A stretch of DNA of 64,000 bases from an uncultured Dehalococcoidia bacterium (GTDB lineage: Bacteria > Chloroflexota > Dehalococcoidia > DSTF01 > JACRBR01): contig CAYJMG010000003.1 of NCBI GenBank assembly GCA_964371355.1, positions 89,351-153,350 on the forward strand, given 5' to 3'. This document shows positions 18,383 to 59,602 of this stretch, in pieces. The first letter of the stretch is position 1; every line of letters begins with the position of its first letter. A model generated the notes under the pieces. It had not been told where the DNA came from, did no database searches, and was given only the letters and a program-made list of their open reading frames with translations. The position numbers were made by a program, and so were the translations under genes.

Positions 18383-18457
18383 TGGAGCCGGCGATGGGAT
18401 TCGAACCCGTGACCTGCTGTTTACGAAACAGCTGCTCTACCGCTGAGCTACGCCGGC
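18383..18457 (-). tRNA. tRNA-Thr (anticodon CGU), CCA encoded
   Basis: Hand-folded cloverleaf: 7-bp acceptor stem GCCGGCG/CGCCGGC, D-arm GCTC/GAGC, anticodon stem GCTGT/ACAGC with loop TTCGTAA (CGT), T-loop TTCGAAT, discriminator T, then CCA. There is one C-A mismatch in the T-stem. Confidence 0.85.
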
Positions 18458-23163: not shown

Positions 23164-23422
23164 GGTGGAGTCCTCCAGGCGGGCCGGGGGGCGCGCGTTG
23201 CTGCGTCTGGGGGTGGTAGCACCCGGGCGTCCCGCGGGGGCCGTCGCGGCTGCTGCTCCGGCGTGAGCATAGCAGGAACGCGCCGAACGCTCTCCCTAAT
23301 CAATGTCACGGATGCGCATAAGCGGCTGCCCGATGCAGGGGCAAACCCCCGGTTCCGATACTCACGTGGTTTCGCGCGCGGGCGGGCCGGATGGGGGAAA
23401 CCGCGCAAGCTTCGGGGGCCGG

Positions 23423-26400
23423 ATGAATCACCAGCAGACAGGCTCGCAGGGAATGCAGGGCCTGGCAGCCGATGCCGCTCTGCGCGCGGTCGTCGAGCGC
23501 GTGTCCGGATCTTCAGGCGGCGAGTTCTACCGGCGCCTGGCCGCCGAGCTGGGCCACGTGTTCCGCGCATCCTACGCGGGAGTTGGCGAACTGTCCCTCG
23601 ATGGCGAGCGGGTGTCGCTGCTGGGCGCGTGGTCGCGCGACCCGACGAGTACCCCCGGCGACTTCGCCGTCGCCGCGACGCCCGCCGAGCCCGTCGCACA
23701 GGGCGAGATACGGCTGCACCGCGAGCGCGTCCGGCGCGAGTTCCCCGCCGACCAGCGGCTACAGCGGCTCTTCGCCGAGAGCTACCTGGGTGTCCCCATC
23801 ACCGACGGGCGGGGCGACGTCCTGGGCCTGATCGAGTTGATCGCCGACACCCCGGTGCGCGATGCGGACGCGGCCACCGCGATCGTCATGGCAATGGCCG
23901 AGCGGACGGCGACCGAGATGGAGCGCGACCAGGCAGAGGCCGCGCTGCGCGACAGCGAGATGCGGTACCGGGCGCTCATCGAGGACTCGTTTCACCTGGT
24001 GGCCGAAGTCGTCGACGAGCGCTTCATCTACGCCAGCTCGGGCTACACCGATACGCTGGGCTACCCGCCGGAAGACCTGCTGGGCGGCAGCGTCTTCGAG
24101 CTGATCCACGAAGAGGATCGCAAGGCCGCAGCCGGCGAGCTGCGGGCGATGCTTTCGCAGCGGCGCGCGGCCCACTTCACCGTGCGTATGAGGCACGAGC
24201 AGGGTGCATGGCGATGGATCGAATGCACGGCGCGCGCGTTCCGCACAAGCGGCGGCGAGTTCCGGACGACGCTGTTCTCGCGCGACGTTACCGACCGCGT
24301 GAAGGCGGAAGCGGCGCTCCGTGAGAGCGAGGAGTTGTTCCGCTCGCTCATCAAGGACCTGCGCGTGGGCGTGGCGCTGCACGACGCCGACGCGCGTGTG
24401 TTGGTCTGCAACGACGCGGCGCTCGCGCTCCTTGGACTGACCGAGGAGGAGGTCCTGGGCAAGACGTCGTACGACGACTCGTGGCGGCCGACGCGCGAGG
24501 ACGGCACGATCATCCCCCCGAACGAGCGCCCGGTGCCGCTCGCCATTGCGACGGGCGCGCCGGTGCGCGACATCGTGTACGGCGTACATCGCCCAGCCAC
24601 GGGCGAGCAAGCCTGGGTGTTGGCGAGCGCGGAGCCGCAGTTTGATGCGGACGGCAGGGTGCACCGCGTCATCTGCTCGTTGAACGACATCACGGCGAGG
24701 CTCATGGCGGAGCAGGAGCTGCGGGCGAGCGAGGGGCGGTTCCGTTTCCTGGCTGAGAACAGCATGGACGTCATCTCCCGCTACGACGCGGACGGACGCT
24801 GTGTCTGGATGTCCCCGTCAGTCACGCCACTAACGGGCTACACGCCGGAGGAGGTCGTCGGGCACTCGCTGGCCGAGATCTTTGCGAACAACGACGACGG
24901 CCTGCTCGCCGGCGCGCTGGCCAACGTGCAGGAAGGCATCGAGTCGTTCCGCACGACCTTCCAGGTCCGGCACAAGGATGGGCACCAGGTCTGGATGGAG
25001 GCGACGAACAAAGTCGTGCGCGACCCCGAGACGGCGGACGTCATCGAGATCCAGACGTCGGCGCGTGACATCTCCGGCCGGAAGCGGGCGGAAGACGAGT
25101 TGCGGGAGAGCGAGGCTCGCTTCCGGCTGCTGGCCGAGAACTCGACCGACATCATCGCGCGATACACGCCCGGAGGCAGGTGCATCTGGGTCTCGCCGTC
25201 CATCAGGAGCGTCACGGGGCGCGACCCCGAGGCCGTCATCGGCCAGATCCCGGGCCACCAAATCCACCCGGATGACCGCGAAGGCGCCGTCGAGGCAATG
25301 CGCGCCCTGGCCGCGGGCGAGGATCAGCGGACGTACACCTTCCGGTTCCAGCACGTCGACGGCCACTACATCTGGCTGGAAGCGCACGCCCGCGCCATCC
25401 GCGACGCCGGCGGGGCCCTGACCGAAGTCCAGACGTCGTCACGCGATGTCACGGCGCGTATGAACGCGGAGGACGAGCTGCGGGAGAGCGAGACGCGCTT
25501 CCGCCTGCTGGCGGAGAACGCTACTGACATGATCTCCCGCTTCGCCCTGGACGGAACGCGTCTCTGGGTTTCGCCATCCGTGCAGGCGATCACCGGCTAC
25601 TCACAGGAAGAGACGATGCAATCGGGCCCCGTCGACAACGTCCACCCTGACGACGTTGCGGCTCTCCAGACGTCGTTCCGGGCGATGGTCGACGGTGAAG
25701 CCTCGCGACGCACGACCTTCCGCTTCCGGCACAGGGACGGGCGTTACCTCTGGCTCGAAGCCGACGGCCGGGCGATCCGCGACGAGGACGGACGGGTGAT
25801 CGAGATCCAGTCGTCCGCCCGCGACGTGACGGCACGCAAGCAGGCCGAAGAGGAACTGCGCGAGAGCGAGGGTCGCTTCCGGCTGCTGGCCCACAACTCC
25901 ACGGATATCATCGGGCGCTTCTCGCCGGACGGCAGGTGTGTCTGGATCTCACCCTCGGCACAGCCGATCACCGGATACACCCCCGAGGAGATCGTGGCGG
26001 CGGCGCCCGCGAAGTTCGTGCACCCCGACGACGCGCTCGAAGTGTGGAACGCGTTCAACGGGATGGTGGAAAGCGGGGCTACGCAGCGCGCCACATTCCG
26101 CTTCCGTCACAAGGACGGCCACTACATCTGGCTGGAGGCGAACGGCCGCGCGGTCCGCGACGACACAGGCCAGGTGGTCGAAATCCACTCCGCGACCCGC
26201 GACGTAACGGCGCGGATGGAGGCGGAGGACGACCTGCGCGAGAGCGAGGGGCGGTTCAGGCTGCTGGCGGAGAACGCGACCGACATGATCGGGCGGTTCA
26301 CGCCGGACGGCGTGTGCCTCTGGGTGTCGCCATCGGTCACCGCCGTCATGGGCTACGAGCCGGCGGAACTCATCGGCCAGAATCTCCGAGAGGGGATCCA

Positions 26401-29400
26401 CCCGGACGACCTGGCGGCGATCTCGCGTGGCCCGGACTGGGAACGGCCGGACTCGGTCACGTCCCTGATGCGCTATCGGCACAAGGCCGGGCACTACATC
26501 TGGATCGAATCGACCAGCAATGCGGTGCGCAACCCGCAGACCGGCGAGGTCATCGAGATCCACAACACGTCGCGCGACGTCACGGCCAGGAAGGCAGCGG
26601 AGGACGATCTGCGCGAGAGCGAGGCCCGCTTCCGCCTGCTCGCGGAAAACGCCACCGACGTCATCGGCCGCTACGCGATGGATGGCCGCTGCCTCTGGGT
26701 ATCGCCCTCGGTCACGCAGGTCCTGGGCTATGCGCCCGACGAAATCGTGGGGCAGGAACCATTCGGCCACATCCACCGCGACGACCTGCAGGACAACATG
26801 CCGTTCCGGCCGGGCGCGACGGATCTGCCGGACCAGTGGCGTACGACACTGCGCTACCGCCACAAGGACGGGCGCTGGGTGTGGCTGGAATCGACGAACC
26901 GCCCGGCCCGCGACCCGCAGACAGGCGCGATGCTCGAAGTGCACTCGACCTCGCGCGATGTCACCGCACGCATCGAGGCCGAGGAGCAGCTCCGCGCCAG
27001 CGAATCGCGGTATCGATCGCTCAGCGAATCCTCCCCGCTCGGCGTGTACGAAACAACAGCCGACGGCGACGCGACGTACTTCAACGAGCGCGCGATCCGG
27101 ATGGCCGGCATCGGCCTCGACGAGCTGAAAGGCTGGGGCTGGAGCCGTCACGTGCACCCCGACGACCGGCCGATCGTGGAAGCGGCGTGGCGTGCTGCGA
27201 CGCAGGACGGCCGTGAGTGCACCATCGAGTACCGCCTCCAGACGCCGCGCGGCATCATCTGGGTGTCCTCGCACGCCCTCCCCATCCGGCTCCCGGACGG
27301 CACTGTCGAGAAGTACGTCGGCACCATCGACAACATCACCGAACGGCGGGAGGCCCAGGAGGCAGTGCGGCGCAGCGAGCAGCTCTTCCGCGCCACGCTG
27401 GAATCGACCGCCGACGGCATCATCGTCACGCGGCCCCTTGGCGAGCTGATGTACTGGAACAACCGCGCGGCGGAGATGCTCGCGATCCCGCAGACGGTGC
27501 TGGACACCCACAGTGTGCAGGCCTTCGGGCGATACATCATCGAGAATGCCCGGGAGCCGGAGGCGCTGGTGATGGCGTTCTCCTCGCTTCCCTCCGACGA
27601 GCCCGTGCAAGCAGGCACCTGGACCGCGCGCGACGGCCGGATGTTCGAGGCCTTCGCGCACCCGCTGCACGACCCTTCGGGCGACCTACTGCGCGTGTGG
27701 AGCATCCGCGAGGTGACCGAGAAACACCAGTCGGAAATGGCGCTGCGCCAGAGCGAGGACCGGTTCCGCTCGCTGGCCGAGCACACGACGGACCTCGTCC
27801 TTGGTATCTGCGGGCCCGGCGTTATCGACTACGCGAGCCCGAACTGGTCCTCGGCAATGGGCTACAACCCCGAGGTCATGATCGGGCGGAACGCGCTCGA
27901 CTTCGTGCACCCTGACGACCTCCCGTACACCCTCGAAGAGTTCGAGCGCGCGGCGGAGGGCGACCGTGCCGTCTGCACGATGCTGCGGGCACGTCATGGG
28001 CAGACCGGCGAATGGCGCTGGTGCGAGCTGACGGCGAACTTCTACACCTCGGACATGGGCGAACAGCGCGCCGTCGTCACCGCCCGCGACGTCACCAGCC
28101 GAAAACAGGCCGAAGACGCGCTGCGGGAGAGCGAGGAGCGCCTGCGGACGGTCGTGAACAGCGTCCCCCTGGTGCTTGTCGCAGTCGACCGGGACGAGAC
28201 GGTCGTGCTCGCGGAGGGCCAGGGCCTTGGCCTGCTCGGCACTCCGACCCGGCCGCTGGTGGGCAGGTCGATCGCGGAGGAGCTGGAGAACCACCCGCAG
28301 GTGCTCGCCGACATGCGGCGCGCGCTCGCCGGTGACGAAGTCTCCACCACGACCGTGTTCGGACGCATCGTGTTCGAAGCGCACTTCCGCCCGATCTTCG
28401 ATGAACACGGCCAGCCCAACGGCATGATCGGCGTGGCATACGACATCTCGGCGCGCGTCGAGGCAGAGCGCATGTTGCGGGACAGCGAGGAGACGGCGCG
28501 CGCCCTGCTGAACGCGCCCACCGACGGCGCCGTGCTGGTCGACCGCGAGGGCACGATCCTGGCCATGAACGAGACGGCGGAACGGCGCTTCCGCGAGCAC
28601 GCCTCGAAGCAGGGTGTAGGGCCGCGCGACTTCATCGGCACGTGCGTCTTCGATATCTTCCCGCCCGACCTCCGCGCCCAGCGGCGGGCACGCAACGACG
28701 AGGTGTTCCGCAACGGCCAGCGCCGCCACTTCGAGGACGAGCGCGACGGCATCTGGACCGACGTGACCGTCGACCCAATCCGCGACGCTGACGGCAACAT
28801 CGTGCGCCTGGCGATCTTCTCCCGCGACGTCACCGACCGCAAGCGCGACGAGGCCGCCCTGCGCAAGCGCTCGCGCGAACTCGAGGCACTGAATGACTAT
28901 CTCGAGAAGACATCGGCCGAGCTTGAGCGCTCCCAGGACGAGCTGCGCGAGGCGAGCGAGCAGCTCGCGGAGCTGCTGGACGCAGAACAGGCGCGGTCGA
29001 AGACCGACACACTGACCGGAGCGCTGAACCATGGGACCATCTCCGAGGCCATCTCGGAGGCGATCGCGGCGGATGTTGCGCTCGCCGTAGCCATGGTCGA
29101 TGTGGACGGCATGAAGGCCGTCAACGACACCTACGGCCACCAGGCGGGCGACCAGGTCCTCCTCGCGGTCGTGCAGGCCATCACCCGCCCAGGCGCCATC
29201 ACCGGCCGCTACGGAGGCGACGAATTCCTGGTGGCGCTGCTGAACGCCGACCGCATCGAAGCCGAAGCCTACAGGGACGCTGTGGGGGCGGCGCTGCAAG
29301 GGGCCGGCGTGGTGGACCCCGAGAGCGGGGCCCGCGTCCCCGTCGTCGCCAGCGTGGGCATCGCCATGTACCCTGAGGACGCGGACACGCTAAAGGCGCT

Positions 29401-30664
29401 CATCGAGCGCGCGGACGAGCGCATGTACGAGGAGAAGAAGGCCCGCAAGGCCAACGGCACCGGCCTTTCGCCGTCGCGCACCATCGGCGACGAGCGCGCG
29501 GCCCGCATGGTGGGCGAGCTGGTGCCGCTGCTGACCTCCAGCGGCACGCTGGACGAGAAGCTGAGACTGGTGGCCCACCGGCTTTCCGTCGGCGCTGGCT
29601 ACGCCGGCGTGAACTTCGACGTGCTGGGCGAGCACGACGGCCGCACCACCACCGTCAACCAGAACGCCTTCACCAAGGCGCCCGACGAGGTGATCGAGGC
29701 ATGGAACCGCCACCAGCGCTCGGGCGTGAACGGTCGCATCAGCGACCTGCTGCGCCAGACGCGCCGGGCGGTGATCATCGATGACATCGCCGCCAGCCAG
29801 CTCGTGACGGAGGAGCAGAAGAAGCTGCTGCTGTCGATCGGCATCGTCTCGGGCATCGTGGTGCCGCTGTTCGACGGCGACGCGATGGTTGCCACCATGT
29901 CGGTCGGGAGCAAGGACGTATCAGGGTTCTCCCAGAGCGACATGCAGTTCCTGACGGCGGTCGCCGGCCAGGTATCGGCCATCATCCGCATGGCTCGCCT
30001 GGTGGAAGACCTGCGGCGGGCAACGGGCCGGCTGGAGGAGGCGCGCGACGAGACGGTCATGTTCCTGGCCGAAGCGGCCGAGGCCCACACACAGAGCGGC
30101 GGCCGGCACTTCCTGGCCACGCGCGCCATCGCCGAGGCGATCGCCACGGAAATGGGGTTCGACGAGGCGAGCGTGCGGGAGCTGGGCCAGGCGGCGGCTC
30201 TGCACGACATCGGCAAGATCCACCTGCCCGACGCCCTGCTGTCCAGCCCGGAGCCACTATCGCCACGGCTCGGCATCGATCCCGCCGGGCAGGCGTGGGA
30301 GACGCTGCAGCAGCACTGTGCGCGCGGGCGCGAGTTCCTGGCCCGCGGCAAGGGATTCGAGCTGGCGGCGATGGCGGCGTACATGCACCACGAACGCTGG
30401 GACGGCGCCGGATACCCGCAGGGCATCGCCGGCGACGCCATCCCCATCGAGGCGTCCATCATCGCGGTGGCCGACAGCCTCGACGCGATGATGACCGAGA
30501 GCCCCTACCAGCCCGGCCGGTCGCTGGACGAGGCGGTCGCCGAAATCCTCGCCTGTCGCGGGACGCAGTTCCGCCCGGACGTGGTCGACGCGTTGTCCCG
30601 CCTGTACGAGCGGCGCGCGCTGCACGGCGTCTGGGCTCAGGACGAGGGCGCGGAGGCGGCCTGA
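23423..30664 (+). CDS. Giant multi-PAS c-di-GMP signalling protein: GAF, 13 PAS, GGDEF, GAF, HD-GYP (about 2413 aa)
   Basis: A single uninterrupted ORF. 13 PAS units each begin with a (E/D)xLRxSE(x)RFRxL linker. Intact GGDEF (RYGGDEFLV) with upstream DVDGMKAVNDTYGHQAGD. HD-GYP (ALHDIGKI ... HHERWDGAGYP). The ATG at 23423 is taken as start; the track's 23303 start and an ATG at 23453 are alternatives. Confidence 0.85.
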   Translation: MNHQQTGSQGMQGLAADAALRAVVERVSGSSGGEFYRRLAAELGHVFRASYAGVGELSLDGERVSLLGAWSRDPTSTPGDFAVAATPAEPVAQGEIRLHRERVRREFPADQRLQRLFAESYLGVPITDGRGDVLGLIELIADTPVRDADAATAIVMAMAERTATEMERDQAEAALRDSEMRYRALIEDSFHLVAEVVDERFIYASSGYTDTLGYPPEDLLGGSVFELIHEEDRKAAAGELRAMLSQRRAAHFTVRMRHEQGAWRWIECTARAFRTSGGEFRTTLFSRDVTDRVKAEAALRESEELFRSLIKDLRVGVALHDADARVLVCNDAALALLGLTEEEVLGKTSYDDSWRPTREDGTIIPPNERPVPLAIATGAPVRDIVYGVHRPATGEQAWVLASAEPQFDADGRVHRVICSLNDITARLMAEQELRASEGRFRFLAENSMDVISRYDADGRCVWMSPSVTPLTGYTPEEVVGHSLAEIFANNDDGLLAGALANVQEGIESFRTTFQVRHKDGHQVWMEATNKVVRDPETADVIEIQTSARDISGRKRAEDELRESEARFRLLAENSTDIIARYTPGGRCIWVSPSIRSVTGRDPEAVIGQIPGHQIHPDDREGAVEAMRALAAGEDQRTYTFRFQHVDGHYIWLEAHARAIRDAGGALTEVQTSSRDVTARMNAEDELRESETRFRLLAENATDMISRFALDGTRLWVSPSVQAITGYSQEETMQSGPVDNVHPDDVAALQTSFRAMVDGEASRRTTFRFRHRDGRYLWLEADGRAIRDEDGRVIEIQSSARDVTARKQAEEELRESEGRFRLLAHNSTDIIGRFSPDGRCVWISPSAQPITGYTPEEIVAAAPAKFVHPDDALEVWNAFNGMVESGATQRATFRFRHKDGHYIWLEANGRAVRDDTGQVVEIHSATRDVTARMEAEDDLRESEGRFRLLAENATDMIGRFTPDGVCLWVSPSVTAVMGYEPAELIGQNLREGIHPDDLAAISRGPDWERPDSVTSLMRYRHKAGHYIWIESTSNAVRNPQTGEVIEIHNTSRDVTARKAAEDDLRESEARFRLLAENATDVIGRYAMDGRCLWVSPSVTQVLGYAPDEIVGQEPFGHIHRDDLQDNMPFRPGATDLPDQWRTTLRYRHKDGRWVWLESTNRPARDPQTGAMLEVHSTSRDVTARIEAEEQLRASESRYRSLSESSPLGVYETTADGDATYFNERAIRMAGIGLDELKGWGWSRHVHPDDRPIVEAAWRAATQDGRECTIEYRLQTPRGIIWVSSHALPIRLPDGTVEKYVGTIDNITERREAQEAVRRSEQLFRATLESTADGIIVTRPLGELMYWNNRAAEMLAIPQTVLDTHSVQAFGRYIIENAREPEALVMAFSSLPSDEPVQAGTWTARDGRMFEAFAHPLHDPSGDLLRVWSIREVTEKHQSEMALRQSEDRFRSLAEHTTDLVLGICGPGVIDYASPNWSSAMGYNPEVMIGRNALDFVHPDDLPYTLEEFERAAEGDRAVCTMLRARHGQTGEWRWCELTANFYTSDMGEQRAVVTARDVTSRKQAEDALRESEERLRTVVNSVPLVLVAVDRDETVVLAEGQGLGLLGTPTRPLVGRSIAEELENHPQVLADMRRALAGDEVSTTTVFGRIVFEAHFRPIFDEHGQPNGMIGVAYDISARVEAERMLRDSEETARALLNAPTDGAVLVDREGTILAMNETAERRFREHASKQGVGPRDFIGTCVFDIFPPDLRAQRRARNDEVFRNGQRRHFEDERDGIWTDVTVDPIRDADGNIVRLAIFSRDVTDRKRDEAALRKRSRELEALNDYLEKTSAELERSQDELREASEQLAELLDAEQARSKTDTLTGALNHGTISEAISEAIAADVALAVAMVDVDGMKAVNDTYGHQAGDQVLLAVVQAITRPGAITGRYGGDEFLVALLNADRIEAEAYRDAVGAALQGAGVVDPESGARVPVVASVGIAMYPEDADTLKALIERADERMYEEKKARKANGTGLSPSRTIGDERAARMVGELVPLLTSSGTLDEKLRLVAHRLSVGAGYAGVNFDVLGEHDGRTTTVNQNAFTKAPDEVIEAWNRHQRSGVNGRISDLLRQTRRAVIIDDIAASQLVTEEQKKLLLSIGIVSGIVVPLFDGDAMVATMSVGSKDVSGFSQSDMQFLTAVAGQVSAIIRMARLVEDLRRATGRLEEARDETVMFLAEAAEAHTQSGGRHFLATRAIAEAIATEMGFDEASVRELGQAAALHDIGKIHLPDALLSSPEPLSPRLGIDPAGQAWETLQQHCARGREFLARGKGFELAAMAAYMHHERWDGAGYPQGIAGDAIPIEASIIAVADSLDAMMTESPYQPGRSLDEAVAEILACRGTQFRPDVVDALSRLYERRALHGVWAQDEGAEAA
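24712..26985 (+). repeat. Six tandem 375-381-bp direct repeat units (PAS-domain-encoding) inside the giant signalling gene
   Basis: Unit boundaries at 24712, 25093, 25474, 25849, 26224 and 26605. They all begin ga(g/a)ga(c/g)ga..tgcg.gagagcgag...cg.ttc.g.ctgct.gc.ga.aac. The encoded PAS units share RFRHKDGHYIWLE-type cores. Confidence 0.75.
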
Positions 30665-31935
30665 CGGGCCTCGGCCGGCTCCGGCGCGTCACTGCCGTGG
30701 CGGGTGAGGTTCACGGCCGCCCACACGGCGAACGTGACCCAGCCCCACACGAAGAACCACCACCCGTTGTCGCGCAGCCACTCCGTACCGGGGCCATCGA
30801 TGCCCGGGAAGATCAGGCCACCGCCGAGGAAGGCGATGATGACGTAAGAGGCCGTGTGGGCGGCAACGAGAGACGCCACGAGGAGACGCTGTCCGCTGAG
30901 GAGACCGAAGGGGACGATCCAGAGATAGTGGTAGGGCGCGCCGTCGTTCACCATCACGAAGAGCACCGCCAACACGCCGGCGATGGACGAATACAGCGGA
31001 GCGCGGCGGTAGATGAGCCAGGCCGCCGCGGCCAGCGTCGCCGCATATGCGGGCCACTCGCCGTGGTCGATCTCGAAGCGCAGCACTGTCGCCGATCCCG
31101 GCACGAATCCGAGGAAGCGGTCGATGATCAGCGGCGGCCCACCCAGCGTCGGGAACGGTGAGTAGTAGCCCTCCACGCCGTCGTACACCCGCAGCGGCGT
31201 GCTGCCGAACGCGAGCACGTACGCCAGGACCGCGCCCCCGACGACGGCGCCGGCCACGATGAGGTACTCCACCCTGCGTTCCGCGCGCAGCCTCGCCAAC
31301 AGCAACGGAATCAGGAACGCGGGCCACAGCTTCTGCAGGATGCCGAGCGCCAGCAATCCGGCCGACTGCAGGCGACTGCCCCCGGCGTTCGCCTCGGACA
31401 GGACGAAGACCGCGGAGACGGCGAAAAAGACCGAGATGACGTCGAACTGACCGTGGTAGATGGTCGCGAGGACGGGGAACGGGCACACGGCGTAAAGCAG
31501 TCCCGTGCGCACGCCCTCGGCCCTCCCCCACAGACGCGACGCCGCATGCGCGAGCAGCAACGCCGTACCCGCGTCGGCCAACGCCTGCGGGACACGGACC
31601 GCCGTGAAGAACGGGATGGGTGTCGCGTCGGCTATGAGCTTGCACACCGCCAGGATGTACATCTGGAACGGCAGGTACGGGTGCGGGAAGGGGCCGAAGG
31701 CGTAGATGTCGCGCCCGTGCAGGACCTCGTTCGCGGTTTTCTCGTAGTTGTTGATGTCGGTCAGCCAGAGGCCTTCGGGCTCGCGGTACACCAGCAGCGG
31801 CACGAACCGCACGATCAACGCGACCGCGGCGACCACCGCGAACTCGCGGCCCGGCGGCACGTCCGGCCGCAAGAACAGCAGCCACACGAAGGCGATGCTC
31901 GCCATCACGATCCACATGAACATGAAGAGAATCAC
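30637..31935 (-). CDS. Polytopic membrane protein, GT87/DUF2029-like (candidate lipid-linked-sugar-dependent glycosyltransferase)
   Basis: 432 aa with about 11 transmembrane helices and a DUF2029-like arrangement. The 3' end overlaps the giant gene's 3' end by 28 bp (convergent). Confidence 0.5.
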   Translation of the reverse strand: MILFMFMWIVMASIAFVWLLFLRPDVPPGREFAVVAAVALIVRFVPLLVYREPEGLWLTDINNYEKTANEVLHGRDIYAFGPFPHPYLPFQMYILAVCKLIADATPIPFFTAVRVPQALADAGTALLLAHAASRLWGRAEGVRTGLLYAVCPFPVLATIYHGQFDVISVFFAVSAVFVLSEANAGGSRLQSAGLLALGILQKLWPAFLIPLLLARLRAERRVEYLIVAGAVVGGAVLAYVLAFGSTPLRVYDGVEGYYSPFPTLGGPPLIIDRFLGFVPGSATVLRFEIDHGEWPAYAATLAAAAWLIYRRAPLYSSIAGVLAVLFVMVNDGAPYHYLWIVPFGLLSGQRLLVASLVAAHTASYVIIAFLGGGLIFPGIDGPGTEWLRDNGWWFFVWGWVTFAVWAAVNLTRHGSDAPEPAEARQAASAPSS

Positions 31936-31983
31936 GGCGGCAGTGTAGGTGACCGAACGCCGGTGTCGGCCCGATGCTTGACG

Positions 31984-33354
31984 TCAGCGCGCCCTGCGGT
32001 GCGCGCGCTGCTTGCGCCAGATCGAGAATCTCCGGCGCAGGCCGAAGCGCGCCTCGTAGTACGAGCGCGAGACGAACCAGTCGAGCGAATGCAGCGCGAT
32101 CGGCAGGCGCTGCTCGTTGCGGCGCACGGGCGAGCTTGACGCGCCGGTGCAGTAGTCGATGAGCGGCGCCAGCGTGCGCTCCCACGTGTACTCCTCGCGG
32201 ACCGCTTCGACGTTGCGGCGGCAGGCCGCGCGGTAGCCCGCGTCGCCCGCCAGCCGGTCGAGCGCGACCGTGAGCGCATCGAGGTCGCCCTCGGGTACCG
32301 CCGCGCCGAGCCCGCGCGCCTCGACCATCTCAGCCACCATGTCGCCCTGCGTGCAGACCAGCGGCAGGCCGGCCCAGAAGCAGTCCAGGTAGCGCACGCG
32401 GAACGAGAACCGCGTCTCCAGGCTGTCGTAGTACGTACAGACGGCGACGTCCGACTCCAACAGGTACTGCTGGGTGTCCTCGTTGTTCGCCCACGTGAAG
32501 TTGAAGAAGACGTGCGTATCCAGGATTCCCAGCTCGCGGCAAAGGTCGAGCGCACGCTGGGTCGTGCCGCCGCCCAGGCCCTGCAGCGTCTTCGCGCCGT
32601 AACTGTCCGGGTGCTCGGTGCCCATGAAGAACAACCGCATGTTCGGATGCCGGTCCTTCAGGCGAGCGACGGCACGGAGCAGCAGGCCCATGTCGTACCA
32701 GTCGACGATGATGCCGTTCCAGATCATCACGAAGTCGCCGCGCCCGATGCCCGGCCACACGCCGCGCAGCAGCGGCACGCCCGCCACGGGCGGCGCCGGC
32801 CGGATGCCGATGGGCGCGATGCGGATCAGACCCTCCAGCGTGGGATCGCTGTCGAACGCGCGGGGCGTAATGAGCCCGGCCGTGCCCATGATGCCTGCAA
32901 TGAGGTCGCGCTGCCGCACGTTCGAGCAGAGGATTGTGTCGGACGCGGCGATCTGCGTGATGAGATCGCGGCGCTTCATGTCGATCCAGGCGCGGCGGTG
33001 CGACTCGCCAGGGTCGCGCTTCGTCATCTCCACCCACTCCGTGATGAATGGAGTGAACAGGTCGAGCACGAGGCGCGTGTTCCCCGCGAACGGCAGCATC
33101 TTCAGTGGGAAGCGCGTGCTGATGACGATGTCGTGCTCGCGCGTCAGCCGCCCGATGTTCGCGCCGTCGTGGCGGGTGAAGGCGAAGGGCACGGTCGCCG
33201 GGTCGAGGTCGGCCGGCGTCGTGCGCGGGATGGCGAGCGTCACCTGCGCGCCCGGGACACGCTCCTGCAGCACCCGCGCCATGTGGTAGCTGCGGATGCC
33301 GCCGCTGGCCATCGTGCCGCCCACCGTCGTGTGGCCCAGGACGAGGATCTTCAT
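31984..33354 (-). CDS. GT4-like (GT-B fold) glycosyltransferase, paralog 1 of 3
   Basis: 456 aa with a C-terminal GT4-type Rossmann layout (IWNGIIVDWYD..., ADVAVCTYYDSLETRFSFRVRYLDCFWAGLPLVCTQGD, final YTWERT). The EX7E motif is degenerate. ATGA overlap with paralog 2. Confidence 0.6.
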   Translation of the reverse strand: MKILVLGHTTVGGTMASGGIRSYHMARVLQERVPGAQVTLAIPRTTPADLDPATVPFAFTRHDGANIGRLTREHDIVISTRFPLKMLPFAGNTRLVLDLFTPFITEWVEMTKRDPGESHRRAWIDMKRRDLITQIAASDTILCSNVRQRDLIAGIMGTAGLITPRAFDSDPTLEGLIRIAPIGIRPAPPVAGVPLLRGVWPGIGRGDFVMIWNGIIVDWYDMGLLLRAVARLKDRHPNMRLFFMGTEHPDSYGAKTLQGLGGGTTQRALDLCRELGILDTHVFFNFTWANNEDTQQYLLESDVAVCTYYDSLETRFSFRVRYLDCFWAGLPLVCTQGDMVAEMVEARGLGAAVPEGDLDALTVALDRLAGDAGYRAACRRNVEAVREEYTWERTLAPLIDYCTGASSSPVRRNEQRLPIALHSLDWFVSRSYYEARFGLRRRFSIWRKQRAHRRAR

Positions 33355-34715
33355 TGCGCCGCCGAATGCCGCGGGGCCAGTCGCGCTCGCACCCGCTGAC
33401 GCAGGCGGAAGCGCAGGAAGTGGTACGACTCCGACAGCAGCCAGTCAGCGCCGAGGCGTGCGATCGGTAGCAGGCGCGCATTGTGCAGCGCGGCCCGCGG
33501 TGCGCCCTCCCGGCAGTAGTCGATCAGCGGCCTCAGCGTCTCCTCCCACGCGAACGACGGCCGCAGCGCCTCGACGTTGCGCCGGCACCCTGCGCGGAAG
33601 GCGTCATCGGAGGCCAGCCGTCGCACCGCGGACACGATCGCGTCCACGTCGCGTTCGGGGACGCTGACGCCAAGCCCCCGCTTGTCGACCATCTCGGACA
33701 CCACGTCGCCGCGCGTCGACACGATGGGCAGTCCTGCCCAGATCAGGTCGAGGAAGCGCACGCGGAACGAGAACCGCGTCTCCAGGTTGTCGAAGTACGT
33801 CGCGACACCGGCGTCCGCGTCGGCCAGATAGCGCTCCGCGGTCTCGTCATCGGCCCAGCCGAAGTTGAAGAACACGTGCGTGTCCAGGATGCCCAGCTCC
33901 TGCGCCAGCTCGTACGCCGCTCGCACCGCCCCCCCGCCCATCCCCCGGAAGCGGCCGGCATCGAAGCTGTGGGGGTGCTCCGTACCCAGGAACACCAGCT
34001 TTACGTCGTCGCGCTCGCGGCTGAGCCGATGGACAGCGTGGATGAGCGACGCGGCGTCGTACCACTCGATGATGGTGCCGTTCCAGAGCAGCAGCTTGTC
34101 GTCGGGGCGGATGCCGGGCACCGCGCCCTTCACGCCGCCACGCGCGGGCAGTGGCCGCGGCCGCACGCCGTACGGAGCGACGGCCAGCACGCTGCCCAGG
34201 CTGGTGTCGCAGTCGTACGTGTGGGCGCTGATGAGGCCCAGCGTACCCATGATGCCGGCGTACAGGTCGCGCTGGCGCTCGTTCGCACACAGGACGAGGT
34301 CGGCGAGGGCGAGCTGCAGCAGCGTGTTCTTGCGCCGCGGCTCCAGCCAGATGTTGCGATACGGCGGGTCTTGGGTGTTCTTCGAAAGTTCGAGCATCTC
34401 GGTGTAGCCCGGCGTGTACATGTCCAACACGATGCGCGTATCCGACGCCGCGGGCAGCAGCTTCAACGGAAACTTGGTCGTCACCACCACGTCCGAGGAC
34501 TTCGTGAGCGAGATCATGTCGCGCTCTGAAGGACGCACGATCTCGAAGCACTCCCGCGCGGGGTCGACATCGCACGGGGTGTGCGGCGAGATGGCCAGCG
34601 TGACGCGGGCATCGGGGAGCTGCTGTTGGAGCACGCGGGCGACGTGGTAGGCCCGGATGCCGGGGGCGGCCATCTTCGTGCCGATAACGGCGTTGGTGAG
34701 GATGGTGACGCGCAT
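33351..34715 (-). CDS. GT4-like (GT-B fold) glycosyltransferase, paralog 2 of 3
   Basis: 454 aa from the ATG at 34715, with the same architecture as paralog 1 (RVTILTNAVIGTKMAAPGIRAYHVARVL ... ETRFSFRVRFLDLIWAGLPIVSTRGD). The start overlaps paralog 3's stop (TAATG). Confidence 0.6.
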   Translation of the reverse strand: MRVTILTNAVIGTKMAAPGIRAYHVARVLQQQLPDARVTLAISPHTPCDVDPARECFEIVRPSERDMISLTKSSDVVVTTKFPLKLLPAASDTRIVLDMYTPGYTEMLELSKNTQDPPYRNIWLEPRRKNTLLQLALADLVLCANERQRDLYAGIMGTLGLISAHTYDCDTSLGSVLAVAPYGVRPRPLPARGGVKGAVPGIRPDDKLLLWNGTIIEWYDAASLIHAVHRLSRERDDVKLVFLGTEHPHSFDAGRFRGMGGGAVRAAYELAQELGILDTHVFFNFGWADDETAERYLADADAGVATYFDNLETRFSFRVRFLDLIWAGLPIVSTRGDVVSEMVDKRGLGVSVPERDVDAIVSAVRRLASDDAFRAGCRRNVEALRPSFAWEETLRPLIDYCREGAPRAALHNARLLPIARLGADWLLSESYHFLRFRLRQRVRARLAPRHSAAQ

Positions 34716-36058
34716 TACTGGCTCAGCACCACGCCGACCGCACGCTGGGCCGCCCACTGCGCCCACGCCCCGGCCAGCATCGCCGTGCGCTTCCACTTCG
34801 GGAGGGCGCTGGTGCGCGGGTCGCGGCAGAACTCCACGAGGTCGCGCAGGGCGACCGTCCAGCTCATCTCCTTGTTCGCCTCGCGGATGTTGCGGCGGCA
34901 CTCCTCGTAGTAGTCGGGGTCGCCCAGCAGGCGCAGGATCGCGCCCGCGACGGCGTCGACGTCCTGCTGCGGGACGGCTTCGCCCATCCGCTTCTCGCGC
35001 ACCATACCGGCCAGCACGTCACCCTCCGTGCAGATCAGCGGCACCTCGGCCCAGAACACGTCGACGAACCGCGTGCGCAGCGAGAAGTGCGTCTCCAGAT
35101 TGTTGAAGTAGGTGCAGACGGCAAGGTCCGCCTCGAGCATGTAATCCTTCATCCGCTCGTACGGCACCCAGGCCATATCGAAGAAGACGGTGTTGTTGTA
35201 GAGCCCCAGCTCGTTAGCCAGTTTCAGGGACTCCATATAGCGCAGGCCCAGGCCCATGCCCTGCAGCCCGGGGTAGGCGCCACCCACGAACACCAGCTTG
35301 ATGTCGTCGCGCTCCTCCCGCACCTTCGCCATCGCCTGCAGCAGCGTGATGGGGTCGTACCACTGCAGAATGCCGCCGTTCCACATGATGAGCCTGTCGG
35401 TCTCCTTGATGCCCGCGTATACGCCCTTCAGCGCCGGCTTCCCCTTCGGGCCCAGGGGGTCGGGGCGGATCCCATGCGGCGCCACGCCGATCATCCGCTT
35501 CAGCGAGGGGTCGTCGTCGTAGGCGATGGGGTCGATCAGGCCGAGCGCGATCAGCGCGCCGATGTAGTAGTCACGCTGGCGATCGTTGGCGACGCTGATG
35601 TAGTCGGCGGAGACAAGCTCGGCGCCGACGCGGCGGCGGGCGCCGGCCATGTACGTCTCACGGTAGCGCTTGTTCTTGCGCAGGTGGTCCCGCGACTGCT
35701 CCATCCACTCCAGGAAGTAAACGGTGTAGTAGTCGAGCACGAACGTCTTCCAGGGGAAGGCGGCGATGGCGTGGGGCGGGTAGTCGTTGGCGATGATGAT
35801 GTCGTGCTGCATCATCAGCGCCAGCAGTGAGCGCCAGTTGTAGTAGGCGACGCTGTAGGGCAGGCGAGAGGGGTCGTCAGGCGGGTCGCTGCCCTTCTGC
35901 AGCGCGAGCGTGATCTCGGCCTCGGGCAGCTCCTGGGCCAGCACCTCGACCATGTGGCGGGTGCGGATGCCCGGGCTCGACATCTGGGCGCCAAAGGCCG
36001 ACCGGCTGACGACGAGGATGCGCTTCCGCCCGCTGCCGTTGCTCTTCGCCATCAGCAC
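34715..36058 (-). CDS. GT4-like (GT-B fold) glycosyltransferase, paralog 3 of 3
   Basis: 447 aa, more divergent, with the same layout (KRILVVSRSAFGAQMSSPGIRTRHMVEVL ... ETHFSLRTRFVDVFWAEVPLICTEGD). Confidence 0.6.
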   Translation of the reverse strand: MLMAKSNGSGRKRILVVSRSAFGAQMSSPGIRTRHMVEVLAQELPEAEITLALQKGSDPPDDPSRLPYSVAYYNWRSLLALMMQHDIIIANDYPPHAIAAFPWKTFVLDYYTVYFLEWMEQSRDHLRKNKRYRETYMAGARRRVGAELVSADYISVANDRQRDYYIGALIALGLIDPIAYDDDPSLKRMIGVAPHGIRPDPLGPKGKPALKGVYAGIKETDRLIMWNGGILQWYDPITLLQAMAKVREERDDIKLVFVGGAYPGLQGMGLGLRYMESLKLANELGLYNNTVFFDMAWVPYERMKDYMLEADLAVCTYFNNLETHFSLRTRFVDVFWAEVPLICTEGDVLAGMVREKRMGEAVPQQDVDAVAGAILRLLGDPDYYEECRRNIREANKEMSWTVALRDLVEFCRDPRTSALPKWKRTAMLAGAWAQWAAQRAVGVVLSQ

Positions 36059-36094
36059 CGCCCTGCCACCGGTTCGCGCTCCGCGGCCTCAGCG

Positions 36095-37189
36095 TCAGCG
36101 CGCCGGCCACTCGATGCGGGAGACAATGTTCGCCCAACTATACATATCGAGGAACGGCGCGGGTACGTTACCGGACTTGACGTGGCGGGGCGCCGCCAGC
36201 GCGGCCGCGAAAGCATCCCAGCCGTCCTCGAAGGACAGCAGCTCCCCGCAAACCGCGCGGTCAATGCCCTCCGCACCCATGGTCGTCGAAACGACAGGCG
36301 TGGCGCAGGCGATGCTCTCCAGGATCTTCAGCCGCGTCCCGCCGCCGCTCACGACCGGCACGGCCACCGCGTCCGCCGCGTTCACGTAGGGCGCCATCGC
36401 CGGGACCGCGCCCGTGTACCGGAGCCGCGGGTGGGAGTACAGCCATGCGGCCTCCTCGTGGTTCTTGCCCGCGACCACGAACTGGTAGTCGAGGCCCGCA
36501 CGGTCCAGCCGCGGCAGCAGCTCCTGGTGGATGATGCGCAGGGCTTCCCCGTTGGGGGCATAGCCGAGCTGCCCGAAGAACAGCAACATCTTCGTGCCCT
36601 CGCCGATCGCGAGCTGCTCGCGGACGCGCGCCCCCGCCGCAGCGTCAGGATGCACGACCGCAGCGTCGACGCCGTTCGGCACCAGCTGTATCTTCGCCGC
36701 AGGCACGCCGCACCGTCGAAAACGCTCGCCGTCCTCCGCCGAGACGACGAAGATGCTCGACCCAAGCCGCGCGATCAGCCGCTCGTACAGGGCGACAAGC
36801 CGCCAGGCGCGCGATCCCGTGCTGCGGAAGCGGTCGCCCTCGACGTTCGGCGCGTCGAGCACCAGCGGCACGCCCAGCCGCCGGGCGAGGTACGCGGCGT
36901 GCAGCCCCGGCCACGGATACTCCGTCACAATCACATCCGGCCGCTGGTCCCGCGCGATGACGAGCGCGCGGCGCAGGAAACCGGCATCGAGCACCTGGTG
37001 GCGGCGGCCAGGTGGAGTCGTCTCGTAAAGGCGCACCCGCAGGTCGTTCGCGGCGTTCGCCGGAGAGCGCGGCGTGAAGAGCAACAGCTCGTGCACGGGT
37101 GCCAGGTGCTTCAGGAGGTTGTAGGCGCGGACGCGCCCGCCATCGTCGGGCGGAAAGATCGGGTACGGCACGATCATCGCGATGTTCAT
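36095..37189 (-). CDS. Glycosyltransferase family 4 (glycosyl transferases group 1)
   Basis: 364 aa from the ATG at 37189 (MNIAMIVPYPIFPPDDGGRVRAYNL...). C-terminal GT4 motifs. ATGA overlap with the upstream GT2. The track's 108-codon N-terminal extension is an Arg/Ala-rich artefact. Confidence 0.8.
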   Translation of the reverse strand: MNIAMIVPYPIFPPDDGGRVRAYNLLKHLAPVHELLLFTPRSPANAANDLRVRLYETTPPGRRHQVLDAGFLRRALVIARDQRPDVIVTEYPWPGLHAAYLARRLGVPLVLDAPNVEGDRFRSTGSRAWRLVALYERLIARLGSSIFVVSAEDGERFRRCGVPAAKIQLVPNGVDAAVVHPDAAAGARVREQLAIGEGTKMLLFFGQLGYAPNGEALRIIHQELLPRLDRAGLDYQFVVAGKNHEEAAWLYSHPRLRYTGAVPAMAPYVNAADAVAVPVVSGGGTRLKILESIACATPVVSTTMGAEGIDRAVCGELLSFEDGWDAFAAALAAPRHVKSGNVPAPFLDMYSWANIVSRIEWPAR

Positions 37190-48978: not shown

Positions 48979-49130
48979 GCGGAGGCCACTCCCATCATGC
49001 GGCGTGTGTCGTATGTGGCGGGGGAGGCCCGGAGGCCGCGGCCAGTATAGCCGGTCAATGATGACGGACACGTAAACATTTCCGTGGTCGCGCATGCGCC
49101 ACGAGTTAGATGCTGTGCAATTTCCAGCCC

Positions 49131-59477: not shown

Positions 59478-59573
59478 GCGCATCAGCCCATTTCGACGTT
59501 GTTCGCGATCCCCATTCCCTCCGCCCCGGCATTACGTTCGGTTTGCACAGTAGGAAATTGTCAACCAACCAGC

Positions 59574-59602
59574 TTGACACCCTATGGGCCCGGTGTTACG
59601 TT
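59574..59602 (+). promoter_or_regulatory. Candidate sigma70-type promoter (TTGACA-N17-TACGTT) in the flp upstream region, flanked by a repeated TTACGTTC motif
   Basis: TTGACA at 59574-59579, a 17-nt spacer, then TACGTT at 59597-59602. The 8-mer TTACGTTC occurs at 59532-59539 and 59595-59602. About 330 nt upstream of flp. Confidence 0.3.

What the first reader, a model, noticed from the sequence alone, without database searches (positions are those of the whole stretch)
23423..30664. 2413-aa single-polypeptide c-di-GMP signalling protein: GAF, 13 PAS, GGDEF, GAF, HD-GYP
The sequence shows one uninterrupted 7.2-kb ORF. Reading the translation gives an N-terminal GAF-like region and 13 PAS units, each introduced by an LRxSE-RFRxL linker. 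Next comes an intact GGDEF (RYGGDEF) with the upstream substrate-binding DxDxxxxxND segment, then a second GAF and an HD-GYP phosphodiesterase (HD...HHERWDGAGYP). Having both synthase and HD-GYP hydrolase in one chain behind 13 sensory PAS modules is an extreme integration architecture. By established knowledge of these domain families, it implies many-input control of c-di-GMP. It sits next to a glycan and Tad-pilus-rich neighbourhood and so could gate surface and adhesion phenotypes.
Basis: partly seen in the sequence, partly recalled or inferred. Interest (0 to 1): 0.7.

Follow-up and report, generated by a model that had tools for sequence, protein, structure and literature searches.

The report
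Giant 13-PAS c-di-GMP signalling protein
This is a real, intact 2413-residue cytoplasmic signalling protein of a soil-type Dehalococcoidia bacterium, with a long chain of sensor modules feeding a c-di-GMP synthase and a variant phosphodiesterase; it is the largest member of an existing, uncharacterised family rather than a new kind of system.

Summary
One uninterrupted ORF (23423-30664, +) encodes GAF, 13 PAS, a 47-residue coiled-coil S-helix, GGDEF, GAF and HD-GYP. The identical protein was assembled independently on at least 23 contigs, and the PAS repeats are at most 69% identical in DNA, so it is not an assembly artefact.

The interpretation needs trimming.
- 13 PAS is large but not extreme: 32 of the 120 best database hits have 13-18 PAS units. 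Syntenic orthologues have 7-13, and six of the 13 units here are one amplified block.
- The GGDEF-GAF-HD-GYP output module is a populated family (about 80 clusters at 50% identity, 633-2032 aa). The domain combination has been known since 1999.
- The GGDEF looks catalytically competent but lacks the RxxD inhibitory site.
- The HD-GYP keeps 7 of 8 metal ligands. It lacks the third-metal Glu, the Lys and Gly of the KPG motif (SPE here; Pro kept) and the guanine-reading RxxK motif (SPYQ here). c-di-GMP hydrolysis is therefore not assured, and the Q is the published signature of cGAMP specificity.
- The glycosyltransferase cluster is adjacent, convergent and syntenic. The Tad genes are 30 kb away.
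- 86 of 90 family members end in Ala-Ala, which suggests a ClpXP-type degron.

Verdict: new member of a known kind, of moderate interest.

The parts
23423..30664 (+). Whole gene (2413 codons plus stop): GAF, 13 PAS, S-helix, GGDEF, GAF, HD-GYP
   Evidence: No stop codon in frame. GC3 is 0.89. The start is supported by the N-terminus of orthologue P0003. The identical product is called on at least 23 contigs.
23522..23911 (+). N-terminal GAF domain (aa 34-163)
   Evidence: PF01590, 30.7 bits against a cut-off of 22.4, covering profile positions 4-130 of 133. Present in all orthologues; dN/dS 0.20-0.30 in the two full-length pairs (P0003, P0002) and 0.47 against L005.
23945..24718 (+). PAS1 and PAS2 (aa 175-432), kept in nearly all orthologues (P0009 lacks a PAS2-like unit)
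   Evidence: Unit boundaries. Orthologue mapping. dN/dS 0.09-0.16.
24719..26989 (+). PAS3-PAS8 (aa 433-1189): six amplified paralogous PAS_3-type units with a period of about 126 aa
   Evidence: 43-58% aa and 57-69% DNA identity among themselves, against 16-36% aa identity to the other units (41% for PAS7-PAS11). Copy number of this block varies among orthologues. A Cys in the GRC[VIL]W strand is kept in 5 of the 6 units.
26990..28474 (+). PAS9-PAS12 (aa 1190-1684), four mutually divergent units
28475..28858 (+). PAS13 (aa 1685-1812), the unit next to the output and the best conserved PAS (76-88% identity in orthologues)
   Evidence: dN/dS 0.11-0.15.
28859..28999 (+). 47-residue S-helix or coiled-coil linker between PAS13 and GGDEF
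   Evidence: 87-91% identical in all orthologues. It has the lowest dN/dS of any segment, 0.04-0.07.
29000..29449 (+). GGDEF domain (aa 1860-2009). It carries D1893, N1901 and D1910 for substrate and metal binding, and the A-site RYGGDEF at 1929-1935 (nt 29207-29227). The I-site position reads RPGA (aa 1922-1925, nt 29186-29197).
   Evidence: PF00990 96.5 bits and TIGR00254 98.4 bits. Alignment to solved cyclases places RPGA opposite the RESD of TpbB. The motifs are invariant in the family.
29621..29986 (+). Second GAF domain (aa 2067-2188 by Pfam; the model places its N-terminal helices from about aa 2022)
   Evidence: PF13185 and PF01590. AlphaFold2 model. Foldseek matches to GAF structures and to the GAF of PmGH.
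30074..30580 (+). HD-GYP domain (aa 2218-2386). Metal ligands present: H2229, H2261, D2262, H2298, H2322, H2323, D2351. S2225 sits at the PmGH E185 position. SPE (2275-2277) replaces KPG. An 8-residue insertion follows. SPYQ (2360-2363, nt 30500-30511) replaces RxxK.
   Evidence: PF13487 88.5 bits. Residue-by-residue alignments to 4MCW, 4R8Z and 5Z7C. Family alignment. Motif census. Fold match to PA4781 at TM 0.85.
30656..30661 (+). C-terminal Ala-Ala dipeptide, a candidate ClpXP-type degron
   Evidence: 86 of 90 family members end in AA, as do relatives that lack HD-GYP. Only 3 of 48 genes in the window do.
30637..38121 (-). Convergent glycosyltransferase cluster (PMT_2/GT87-like, three GT1, GT4, GT2). 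Its last gene overlaps the 3' end of the signalling gene by 28 bp. This is context, not a shown functional partner.
   Evidence: Pfam. The same order is found beside orthologues P0003, P0006 and L005, and partly P0002; it is absent beside the paralogues.

Best explanation
The gene encodes a soluble cytoplasmic signalling enzyme that is probably a homodimer.

Input. An N-terminal GAF and a rod of 13 PAS modules collect intracellular cues whose ligands are unknown. They pass a conformational signal down the helical PAS linkers into a strongly conserved 47-residue S-helix.

Synthase. The S-helix sets the geometry of two GGDEF domains and so switches c-di-GMP synthesis on or off. The GGDEF has every catalytic and GTP-binding residue but no RxxD I-site, so it is not held back by product inhibition.

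Phosphodiesterase module. The chain carries its own PmGH-type GAF-HD-GYP module in place of that brake. This HD-GYP has a complete binuclear metal site and is under purifying selection, so it is most likely still a phosphodiesterase. It lacks the third-metal Glu, which usually means a linear dinucleotide product rather than GMP. It also lacks the residues that read guanine (RxxK is SPYQ; KPG is SPE). Its affinity or specificity for c-di-GMP is therefore altered, and it may prefer cGAMP or another dinucleotide.

Turnover and output. A conserved C-terminal Ala-Ala suggests that the protein's abundance is also set by ClpXP-type proteolysis. The downstream target is unknown. The conserved convergent glycosyltransferase cluster is the only positional hint.

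What is shown and what is inferred. Shown: the architecture, the residues, the family, the synteny and the selection. Inferred: dimerisation, signal flow, the enzymatic activities, the degron function and the output.
For: - Architecture and PAS count.
- No segment qualifies as transmembrane. The most hydrophobic 19-residue windows lie inside the GGDEF and GAF cores.
- GGDEF: DxD..K..ND..GH..GD and RYGGDEF are present and invariant across the family. dN/dS is 0.11-0.13.
- The S-helix is the most constrained segment, with dN/dS 0.04-0.07.
- The I-site is RPGA. No RxxD is found in any of 82 family members.
- HD-GYP: 7 of the 8 PmGH metal ligands align. dN/dS is 0.15-0.32.
- The AlphaFold2 model of aa 2010-2413 has pLDDT 84.9. 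Its best PDB match is PmGH 4MCW across both GAF and HD-GYP. The HD-GYP alone matches binuclear PA4781 at TM 0.85.
- Roles of E185, KPG and RxxK are taken from 10.1101/2021.11.05.467447. RxxQ as the cGAMP signature is taken from 10.1101/600031.
- GAF-gated HD-GYP has a precedent in Tlr0485, which is gated by cAMP.
- C-terminal AA occurs in 86 of 90 family members against 3 of 48 window genes. Ala-Ala-COO- as a ClpXP degron is taken from PMC7142297.
Against: - No activity was measured for any member of this family, and none was found in the searchable literature.
- Loss of R314, K317 and K235 equivalents could mean poor binding of any cyclic dinucleotide.
- Two syntenic orthologues (P0006, P0009) have lost the HD-GYP altogether, so the PDE half is dispensable in some lineages.
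- No ligand or cofactor could be assigned to any PAS or GAF domain.
- No PilZ domain, riboswitch or other c-di-GMP receptor was seen in the window, so the output is unsupported.
- GGDEF residues K442 and R446 were checked only at motif level.
Confidence: 0.55

Rival explanations
1. The protein is a cross-talk enzyme. The GGDEF makes c-di-GMP, while the HD-GYP has been retargeted to 3',3'-cGAMP or another cyclic dinucleotide. The protein would then raise one messenger while removing another.
For: Position 4 of the RxxK motif is Q or N in the syntenic orthologue group: SPYQ, SPYN and SAYQ in the query, L004, P0002, P0003 and P0123, and RAYQ in L005, P0004, P0005, P0008 and P0124. The exception is P0007 (RAYK). 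Most of the wider family keeps RxxR or RxxK, 69 of 82. In PmxA, RxxQ gives cGAMP specificity and Q518R reverts it (10.1101/600031). The metal site is intact and under purifying selection.
Against: - The Arg of the motif is also lost here, unlike in PmxA.
- No cGAMP synthase is in view. The GGDEF has Asp at the PleD D344 position, so it is not a Hypr GGDEF.
- HdgA, with RxxS, still cleaves c-di-GMP.
- V-cGAP enzymes cleave cGAMP while keeping RxxR.
The motif is therefore only a partial predictor.
Confidence: 0.15
2. The protein works as a diguanylate cyclase only. The HD-GYP is a decaying or non-catalytic appendage, for example a structural or protein-binding domain like the inactive RpfG-type or DvhD-type HD-GYPs.
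For: Three substrate-contacting positions are lost and an 8-residue loop insertion is specific to this orthologue group. dN/dS is higher than for GGDEF in all four comparisons. Orthologues P0006 and P0009 lack the domain, and many relatives end after the GAF. A degenerate HD-GYP that serves as a c-di-GMP receptor has been solved (DvhD, 9RBZ), and it is a close fold match.
Against: All seven binuclear-site ligands and the GYP Tyr are invariant in the family, whereas DvhD has lost the HD dyad. A dN/dS of 0.15-0.32 still indicates clear purifying selection.
Confidence: 0.2
3. The net activity is phosphodiesterase. The GGDEF would act mainly as an allosteric GTP sensor, as in PdeA (CC3396)-type GGDEF-EAL proteins.
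For: [quoted passage not shown]
Against: In the GTP-sensor cases the GGDEF motif is degenerate. Here the A-site and all substrate residues are intact, invariant and the more strongly constrained of the two enzymatic domains.
Confidence: 0.07
4. The ORF is an assembly or annotation artefact, produced by collapse or expansion of repeats or by fusion of two genes.
For: The internal units are repetitive and the source is metagenomic.
Against: Repeat units are at most 69% identical in DNA and no tandem repeat is detected. The identical protein occurs on at least 23 contigs from separate assemblies. Collinear orthologues are found in other species.
Confidence: 0.02

Closest known systems
PmGH family (GAF-HD-GYP c-di-GMP phosphodiesterases; PmGH of Persephonella marina, PDB 4MCW; Tlr0485 of Thermosynechococcus)
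   Same: The C-terminal 400 residues form a GAF, a long helix and an HD-GYP. The best PDB fold match is 4MCW, across both domains. Seven of the eight metal ligands and the HHExxDGxGYP motif are conserved.
   Different: - Fused behind a GGDEF and 13 PAS units.
- E185 is Ser, so a binuclear rather than a trinuclear site is predicted.
- KPG is SPE.
- RxxK is SPYQ.
- An 8-residue insertion follows the KPG position.
- No cNMP-binding signature was recognised in the GAF.
PA4781 (Pseudomonas aeruginosa binuclear HD-GYP, PDB 4R8Z)
   Same: It lacks the acidic third-metal ligand. It is the closest fold match for the HD-GYP alone (TM 0.85, rmsd 1.9-2.6 A).
   Different: PA4781 is a REC-HD-GYP response regulator. 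It keeps RxxR (HAYR aligned) and NPG.
PmxA (MXAN_2061), the cGAMP-specific HD-GYP phosphodiesterase with an RxxQ signature
   Same: [quoted passage not shown]
   Different: PmxA keeps the Arg and has a Cache-TM-HAMP input. Here the Arg is Ser, and the domain is fused to a canonical, non-Hypr GGDEF.
[quoted passage not shown]
   Same: They put PAS or GAF sensors, GGDEF and HD-GYP in one chain. This combination has been recognised since 1999.
   Different: The domain order here is GGDEF-GAF-HD-GYP with a fixed spacing of about 380 aa. The family is centred on Dehalococcoidia/Chloroflexota. No member has been studied experimentally.
Giant multi-PAS histidine kinases of environmental Chloroflexota, Geminicoccaceae, archaea and others
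   Same: They carry 13-18 tandem PAS units in proteins of 2000-3900 aa.
   Different: Their output is a histidine kinase, not GGDEF/HD-GYP. Identity is only 22-31%, confined to the PAS region.

Membership tests
GGDEF diguanylate cyclase (PF00990 / TIGR00254) | Domain model score above the curated cut-off | tested here: met
   PF00990 96.5 bits (cut-off 23.8). TIGR00254 98.4 bits (cut-off 37.4).
GGDEF diguanylate cyclase (PF00990 / TIGR00254) | A-site GG[D/E]EF with the preceding Arg, and the metal- and guanine-binding D, N and D (PleD D327, N335, D344) | tested here: met
   RYGGDEF at 1929-1935. D1893, N1901 and D1910 lie in DVDGMKAVNDTYGHQAGD. The motifs are invariant in the family. The PleD numbering comes from my own knowledge of PleD.
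GGDEF diguanylate cyclase (PF00990 / TIGR00254) | RxxD inhibitory I-site five residues upstream of GGDEF (found in most active cyclases; not obligatory) | tested here: not met
   RPGA aligns with the RESD of TpbB. None of the 82 family members has RxxD.
GGDEF diguanylate cyclase (PF00990 / TIGR00254) | c-di-GMP synthesis from GTP | not testable with these tools
   Needs enzymology.
Hypr GGDEF (cGAMP-producing) | Ser instead of Asp at the PleD D344 position | tested here: not met
   D1910 is Asp, as in all family members.
HD-GYP phosphodiesterase | HD dyad and the HHExxDGxGYP motif | tested here: met
   HDIGK at 2261-2265 and HHERWDGAGYP at 2322-2332. PF13487 88.5 bits and PF01966 52.3 bits.
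HD-GYP phosphodiesterase | Seven core metal ligands (PmGH H189, H221, D222, H250, H276, H277, D305) | tested here: met
   H2229, H2261, D2262, H2298, H2322, H2323 and D2351 align with these residues in 4MCW. They are invariant in alignment A1.
HD-GYP phosphodiesterase, trinuclear subclass | Acidic residue at PmGH E185, the ligand of the third metal | tested here: not met
   Ser2225 here. The position is T, A, V, S or N in almost all of the family. The protein is therefore predicted to belong to the binuclear subclass.
HD-GYP phosphodiesterase | c-di-GMP-contacting motifs KPG (K235, G237) and RxY[K/R] (R314, K317) | tested here: not met
   SPE at 2275-2277 and SPYQ at 2360-2363.
PmGH family (GAF-HD-GYP) | GAF directly upstream of HD-GYP, joined by a long helix, with the PmGH fold | tested here: met
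   Pfam GAF at 2067-2188 followed by HD_5 at 2218-2386. The model has a 51-residue connecting helix. 4MCW is the top Foldseek hit over about 400 columns.
cGAMP-specific HD-GYP (GAP, PmxA type) | Rxx[Q/N] in place of Rxx[K/R] | tested here: inconclusive
   The Q is present but the R is replaced by S (SPYQ). Close orthologues have RAYQ.
PAS domain (TIGR00229, PF08447, PF08448, PF00989, PF13426) | Domain model hits above cut-off; count of non-overlapping units | tested here: met
   13 stretches of TIGR00229, 789 bits in all. 13 units by an HMM built from the units themselves.
PAS domain (cofactor-binding subtypes: LOV, haem, FAD) | Subtype signature such as the LOV NCRFLQ cysteine motif | tested here: not met
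   There is no NCRF motif. The YtvA model scores 86 bits against a cut-off of 250, and FixL 189 against 850. The nearest solved PAS domains have E-values of about 1e-11 and are ARNT-like. Haem and FAD signatures were not examined residue by residue.
GAF domain (PF01590, PF13185) | Domain model score above cut-off, twice | tested here: met
   N-terminal GAF 30.7 bits (cut-off 22.4). C-terminal GAF_2 44.9-50.5 bits (cut-off 28.6).
Tlr1612 family c-di-GMP phosphodiesterase (NF053781) | Whole-protein score above the equivalog cut-off | tested here: not met
   753 bits against a cut-off of 1600. The score comes from 13 stretches of repeated PAS matches only.

The most novel reading that the evidence does not exclude
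The syntenic orthologue group would be a messenger cross-talk enzyme. A PAS-gated canonical c-di-GMP synthase would be fused to an HD-GYP whose guanine-reading motif has been rewritten (RxxK to RxxQ to SxxQ/N), so that it removes a different cyclic dinucleotide, cGAMP or one not yet known. The level of the whole protein would be set by a family-wide C-terminal Ala-Ala ClpXP degron. This would put cGAMP-type signalling in Dehalococcoidia, where none is known.
Probability: 0.12. Interest if true: 0.6.

Novelty: new member of a known kind. Interest (0 to 1): 0.32.

Why it matters
c-di-GMP signalling in Dehalococcoidia/Chloroflexota has had almost no study. Only two papers in the searchable library mention Dehalococcoidia together with GGDEF.

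This gene is the largest known member of a populated, uncharacterised GGDEF-GAF-HD-GYP family. Three features make it a useful test case:
- Natural variation in PAS copy number (7-13) at a fixed genomic position, which bears on how signals travel through long PAS arrays.
- A stepwise change in the HD-GYP specificity motif, which bears on how HD-GYP specificity evolves.
- A conserved C-terminal Ala-Ala, which bears on whether c-di-GMP enzymes are commonly controlled by proteolysis.

None of these overturns current understanding. The domain families, their combination and multi-PAS proteins of this size are all known.

Tried and rejected
- Assembly artefact: rejected.
- Membership of the Tlr1612 equivalog, or of the EspA, FixL or YtvA families: rejected. 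The scores are far below the cut-offs and come only from PAS repeats.
- Hypr GGDEF: rejected.
- Membrane anchoring: rejected. The only hydrophobic maxima lie inside domain cores.
- Link to the Tad pilus: rejected as a neighbourhood claim, because the genes are 30 kb away.
- c-di-GMP riboswitch, or PilZ or other receptor, in the window: none found.
- Sigma-70-like promoter or terminator scan around the gene: nothing above the shuffled expectation.
- Close solved homologues of the PAS units that might reveal ligands: none better than E about 1e-11.
- Literature search for a characterised GGDEF-GAF-HD-GYP protein: none found.
- Dating the PAS5 and PAS8 duplications. Each unit is less similar to its in-protein partner (57-58%) than PAS6 and PAS7 are to the matching units in orthologues (67-73%). 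Gain in this lineage and loss in the relatives cannot be told apart.
Full report
**Observation.** The + strand carries one uninterrupted reading frame from 23303 to 30664. Its third-position GC is 0.89, the same as the other genes in this 68% GC window. Orthologue P0003 begins MNHQQAGSHG, against MNHQQTGSQG here, and all orthologues have 170-205 residues before the first PAS (mostly 170-180). The public gene model (P0001, 2443 aa) starts 30 codons upstream.

**Domains.** Pfam and NCBIfam give the following:
- GAF at aa 34-163 (30.7 bits, cut-off 22.4)
- PAS across aa 175-1812
- GGDEF at aa 1860-2009
- GAF at aa 2067-2188
- HD_5/HD at aa 2218-2386

The PAS count of 13 was obtained three ways. 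There are 13 TIGR00229 stretches. There are 13 R-x-S-E linker motifs spaced 118-134 residues apart. An HMM built from the units gives 13 non-overlapping hits.

**Not an artefact.** Tandem Repeats Finder reports nothing in the gene. The most similar PAS units are 69% identical in DNA, too divergent to mislead an assembler. The identical protein is called on at least 23 contigs of 5-325 kb from several separate ENA assemblies.

**Organism and family.** The closest species-level genomes are Dehalococcoidia (Chloroflexota) MAGs. Many come from soil-type catalogues. They are 82% and 71% identical over the last 600 residues.

A scan of 1.84 billion cluster representatives with the last 601 residues returned about 80 representatives that match GGDEF, GAF and HD-GYP as one continuous stretch, at 37-82% identity. 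Their lengths run from 633 to 2032 aa. The spacing from GGDEF to the HD-GYP HHE motif is fixed at 350-391 residues. Several MAGs carry two or three paralogues. The output module is therefore an established but unstudied family, and the window protein is its longest member.

Literature searches found no characterised protein with this architecture. The combination of GGDEF with HD-GYP has been noted since 1999, and GAF-HD-GYP is the named PmGH family.

**The PAS array.** PAS3-PAS8 form one amplified block at 43-58% aa identity, against 16-36% for nearly all other pairs. Orthologues in the same chromosomal position have 7, 8, 9, 10, 11, 12 or 13 units. The differences lie mainly in this middle block (some orthologues also lack PAS9 or PAS11). 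The N-terminal GAF, PAS1, PAS13 and (except in P0009) PAS2 are always kept.

PAS13 and, above all, the 47-residue S-helix before the GGDEF are the most constrained parts. The S-helix has dN/dS 0.04-0.07 and PAS13 has 0.11-0.15. This fits a model in which the unit nearest the output and the coiled coil do the switching, while the middle units are modulatory or structural.

Thirteen PAS is not exceptional. Among the 120 best hits in the 5.8-billion-protein search, 32 have 13-18 units by the same HMM. Most of these are histidine kinases.

No cofactor signature was found. There is no LOV motif. YtvA and FixL models score far below their cut-offs. The closest solved PAS domains are ARNT-like, at E about 1e-11.

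**GGDEF.** The metal- and guanine-binding residues (D1893, N1901, D1910) and RYGGDEF (1929-1935) are present. They are invariant across orthologues and, apart from one RYAGDEF variant (L013), across paralogues. dN/dS is 0.11-0.13. Asp at the PleD D344 position excludes a cGAMP-making Hypr GGDEF. The I-site is absent: RPGA aligns with the RESD of TpbB. No family member has RxxD. An active cyclase without product inhibition is the best-supported reading.

**HD-GYP.** Alignment to PmGH (4MCW), PA4781 (4R8Z) and V-cGAP3 (5Z7C) shows that seven of the eight PmGH metal ligands are conserved: H2229, H2261, D2262, H2298, H2322, H2323 and D2351. The GYP tyrosine is also conserved.

Three features differ.
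- The E185 position is Ser, and is non-acidic almost throughout the family. That places the domain in the binuclear subclass, which usually stops at the linear dinucleotide.
- KPG is SPE, followed by an 8-residue insertion peculiar to the syntenic orthologue group.
- The RxY[K/R] motif that reads one guanine is SPYQ.

Across the family this last motif is RxxR or RxxK in 69 of 82 members, RxxQ in 6, and Sxx[Q/N] in only 3. Within the syntenic orthologues there is a series:
- RAYK in P0007
- RAYQ in L005, P0004, P0005 and P0008
- S[PA]Y[QN] in the query, L004, P0002 and P0003

Wright et al. showed that RxxQ makes PmxA cGAMP-specific and that Q-to-R reverts it. Galperin and Chou note exceptions.

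The domain is still under purifying selection, with dN/dS 0.15-0.32. An AlphaFold2 model of aa 2010-2413 (pLDDT 84.9) has PmGH as its best PDB match over both domains. For the HD-GYP alone it matches PA4781 at TM 0.85. Two syntenic orthologues (P0006, P0009) lack the HD-GYP entirely.

I therefore treat 'c-di-GMP hydrolase' as plausible but unproven. Altered specificity and loss of function remain live rivals.

**Context.** A citrate synthase lies upstream and is transcribed divergently. Downstream and convergent lies a cluster of a PMT_2/GT87-like membrane glycosyltransferase, three GT1, one GT4 and one GT2, followed by two sulfotransferase-like ORFs, a second PMT_2 protein and methyltransferases. 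The first of these genes overlaps the 3' end of the signalling gene by 28 bp.

The arrangement SDR, citrate synthase, PAS gene, then glycosyltransferase cluster recurs beside orthologues P0003, P0006 and L005, and partly beside P0002. It is absent beside the paralogues. This is a positional hint of a link to envelope glycan synthesis and nothing more. No PilZ or other receptor domain and no riboswitch was found.

The Tad genes (TadE, TadG-like, RcpC/CpaB) lie at 60.2-64 kb. They are separated from the gene by about 30 kb of unrelated genes.

**An extra finding.** 86 of 90 family members end in Ala-Ala, and the other four end in VA or CA. Relatives that stop after the GAF also end in AA. More distant GGDEF/HD-GYP proteins do not, and only 3 of 48 genes in this window do. 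Ala-Ala-COO- is the essential part of the ssrA-type ClpXP degron. It was validated as a degron for a regulator where 67 of 71 orthologues carry it (PMC7142297). Proteolytic control of this enzyme family is a reasonable, testable inference.

**Verdict.** The functional reading is half right. The protein is almost certainly a PAS-gated diguanylate cyclase. The HD-GYP half is a variant whose substrate is uncertain. The 'extreme' and 'Tad-linked' claims do not hold. It is a new, largest member of a known kind, with a few details worth a biochemist's attention.

Noticed in passing
window 30656-30661, and the C-termini of family proteins P0002-P0009 and P0123-P0270: Almost every GGDEF-GAF-HD-GYP family member (86 of 90) ends in Ala-Ala, as do relatives truncated after the GAF. 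Only 3 of 48 window genes do. This looks like a conserved ClpXP-type C-terminal degron.
   Followed up: partly
window 24719-26989 (aa 460, 587, 839, 965, 1090): Five of the six amplified PAS units keep a Cys in the same strand motif (G-R/V-C-[VIL]-W-[VIM]-SPS). PAS5 has Arg there (GTRLW). It may be a redox or metal handle; this was not tested.
   Followed up: no
window 30637-30664; L084 14072-14099: The 3' ends of the signalling gene and the convergent PMT_2-like glycosyltransferase gene overlap by 28 bp. The same overlap is present in the orthologous locus of P0003, and a 78-bp overlap in the locus of P0006.
   Followed up: partly
window 38180-38977 and 38952-39815 (+): Two tandem paralogous ORFs (265 and 287 aa, with a GDARTGS / GEGRTGS P-loop-like start) sit in a lower-GC patch at the end of the glycosyltransferase cluster. 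The equivalent gene in orthologous loci has only a faint Sulfotransfer_3 hit. The glycan may be sulfated.
   Followed up: no
window 47122-49095 (-) and 50617-52617 (-): Two large, apparently secreted proteins have thrombospondin type-3-like Asp-rich repeats and dockerin-like C-termini. One has a glucose/sorbosone dehydrogenase propeller. The second lies in a lower-GC stretch (about 0.63) and its body was not scanned against any domain library.
   Followed up: no
window 59007-64000 (+): A partial Tad/Flp pilus locus: TadE-like (60216-60683), Tad/TadG-like (60674-62134), RcpC/CpaB (62228-63052) and a further ORF that runs off the window. It is preceded by three small ORFs (59007-60185) without Pfam hits, which could include the pilin.
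   Followed up: partly
P0006 (contig of JGI 3300056388) and P0009: These orthologues, of which P0006 is shown to lie in the same syntenic position, end after the second GAF and have no HD-GYP. The next gene abuts directly, so this is a true domain loss rather than a frameshift.
   Followed up: partly
window 1807-3276 (-): An Ada-like fusion of an Ada zinc-binding domain, an AraC HTH and a 6-O-methylguanine methyltransferase DNA-binding domain, with about 140 extra N-terminal residues in the longest ORF.
   Followed up: no
L002 1542-2831: In one of the independent assemblies the neighbouring citrate synthase gene is split into two ORFs (258 and 159 aa), while the giant PAS gene remains intact. 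This is probably an assembly error or a strain-level frameshift.
   Followed up: no
window 18383-18457 (-): A single tRNA-Thr(CGT) is the only RNA gene that ARAGORN or Rfam detects in the 64 kb. There is no c-di-GMP riboswitch.
   Followed up: yes
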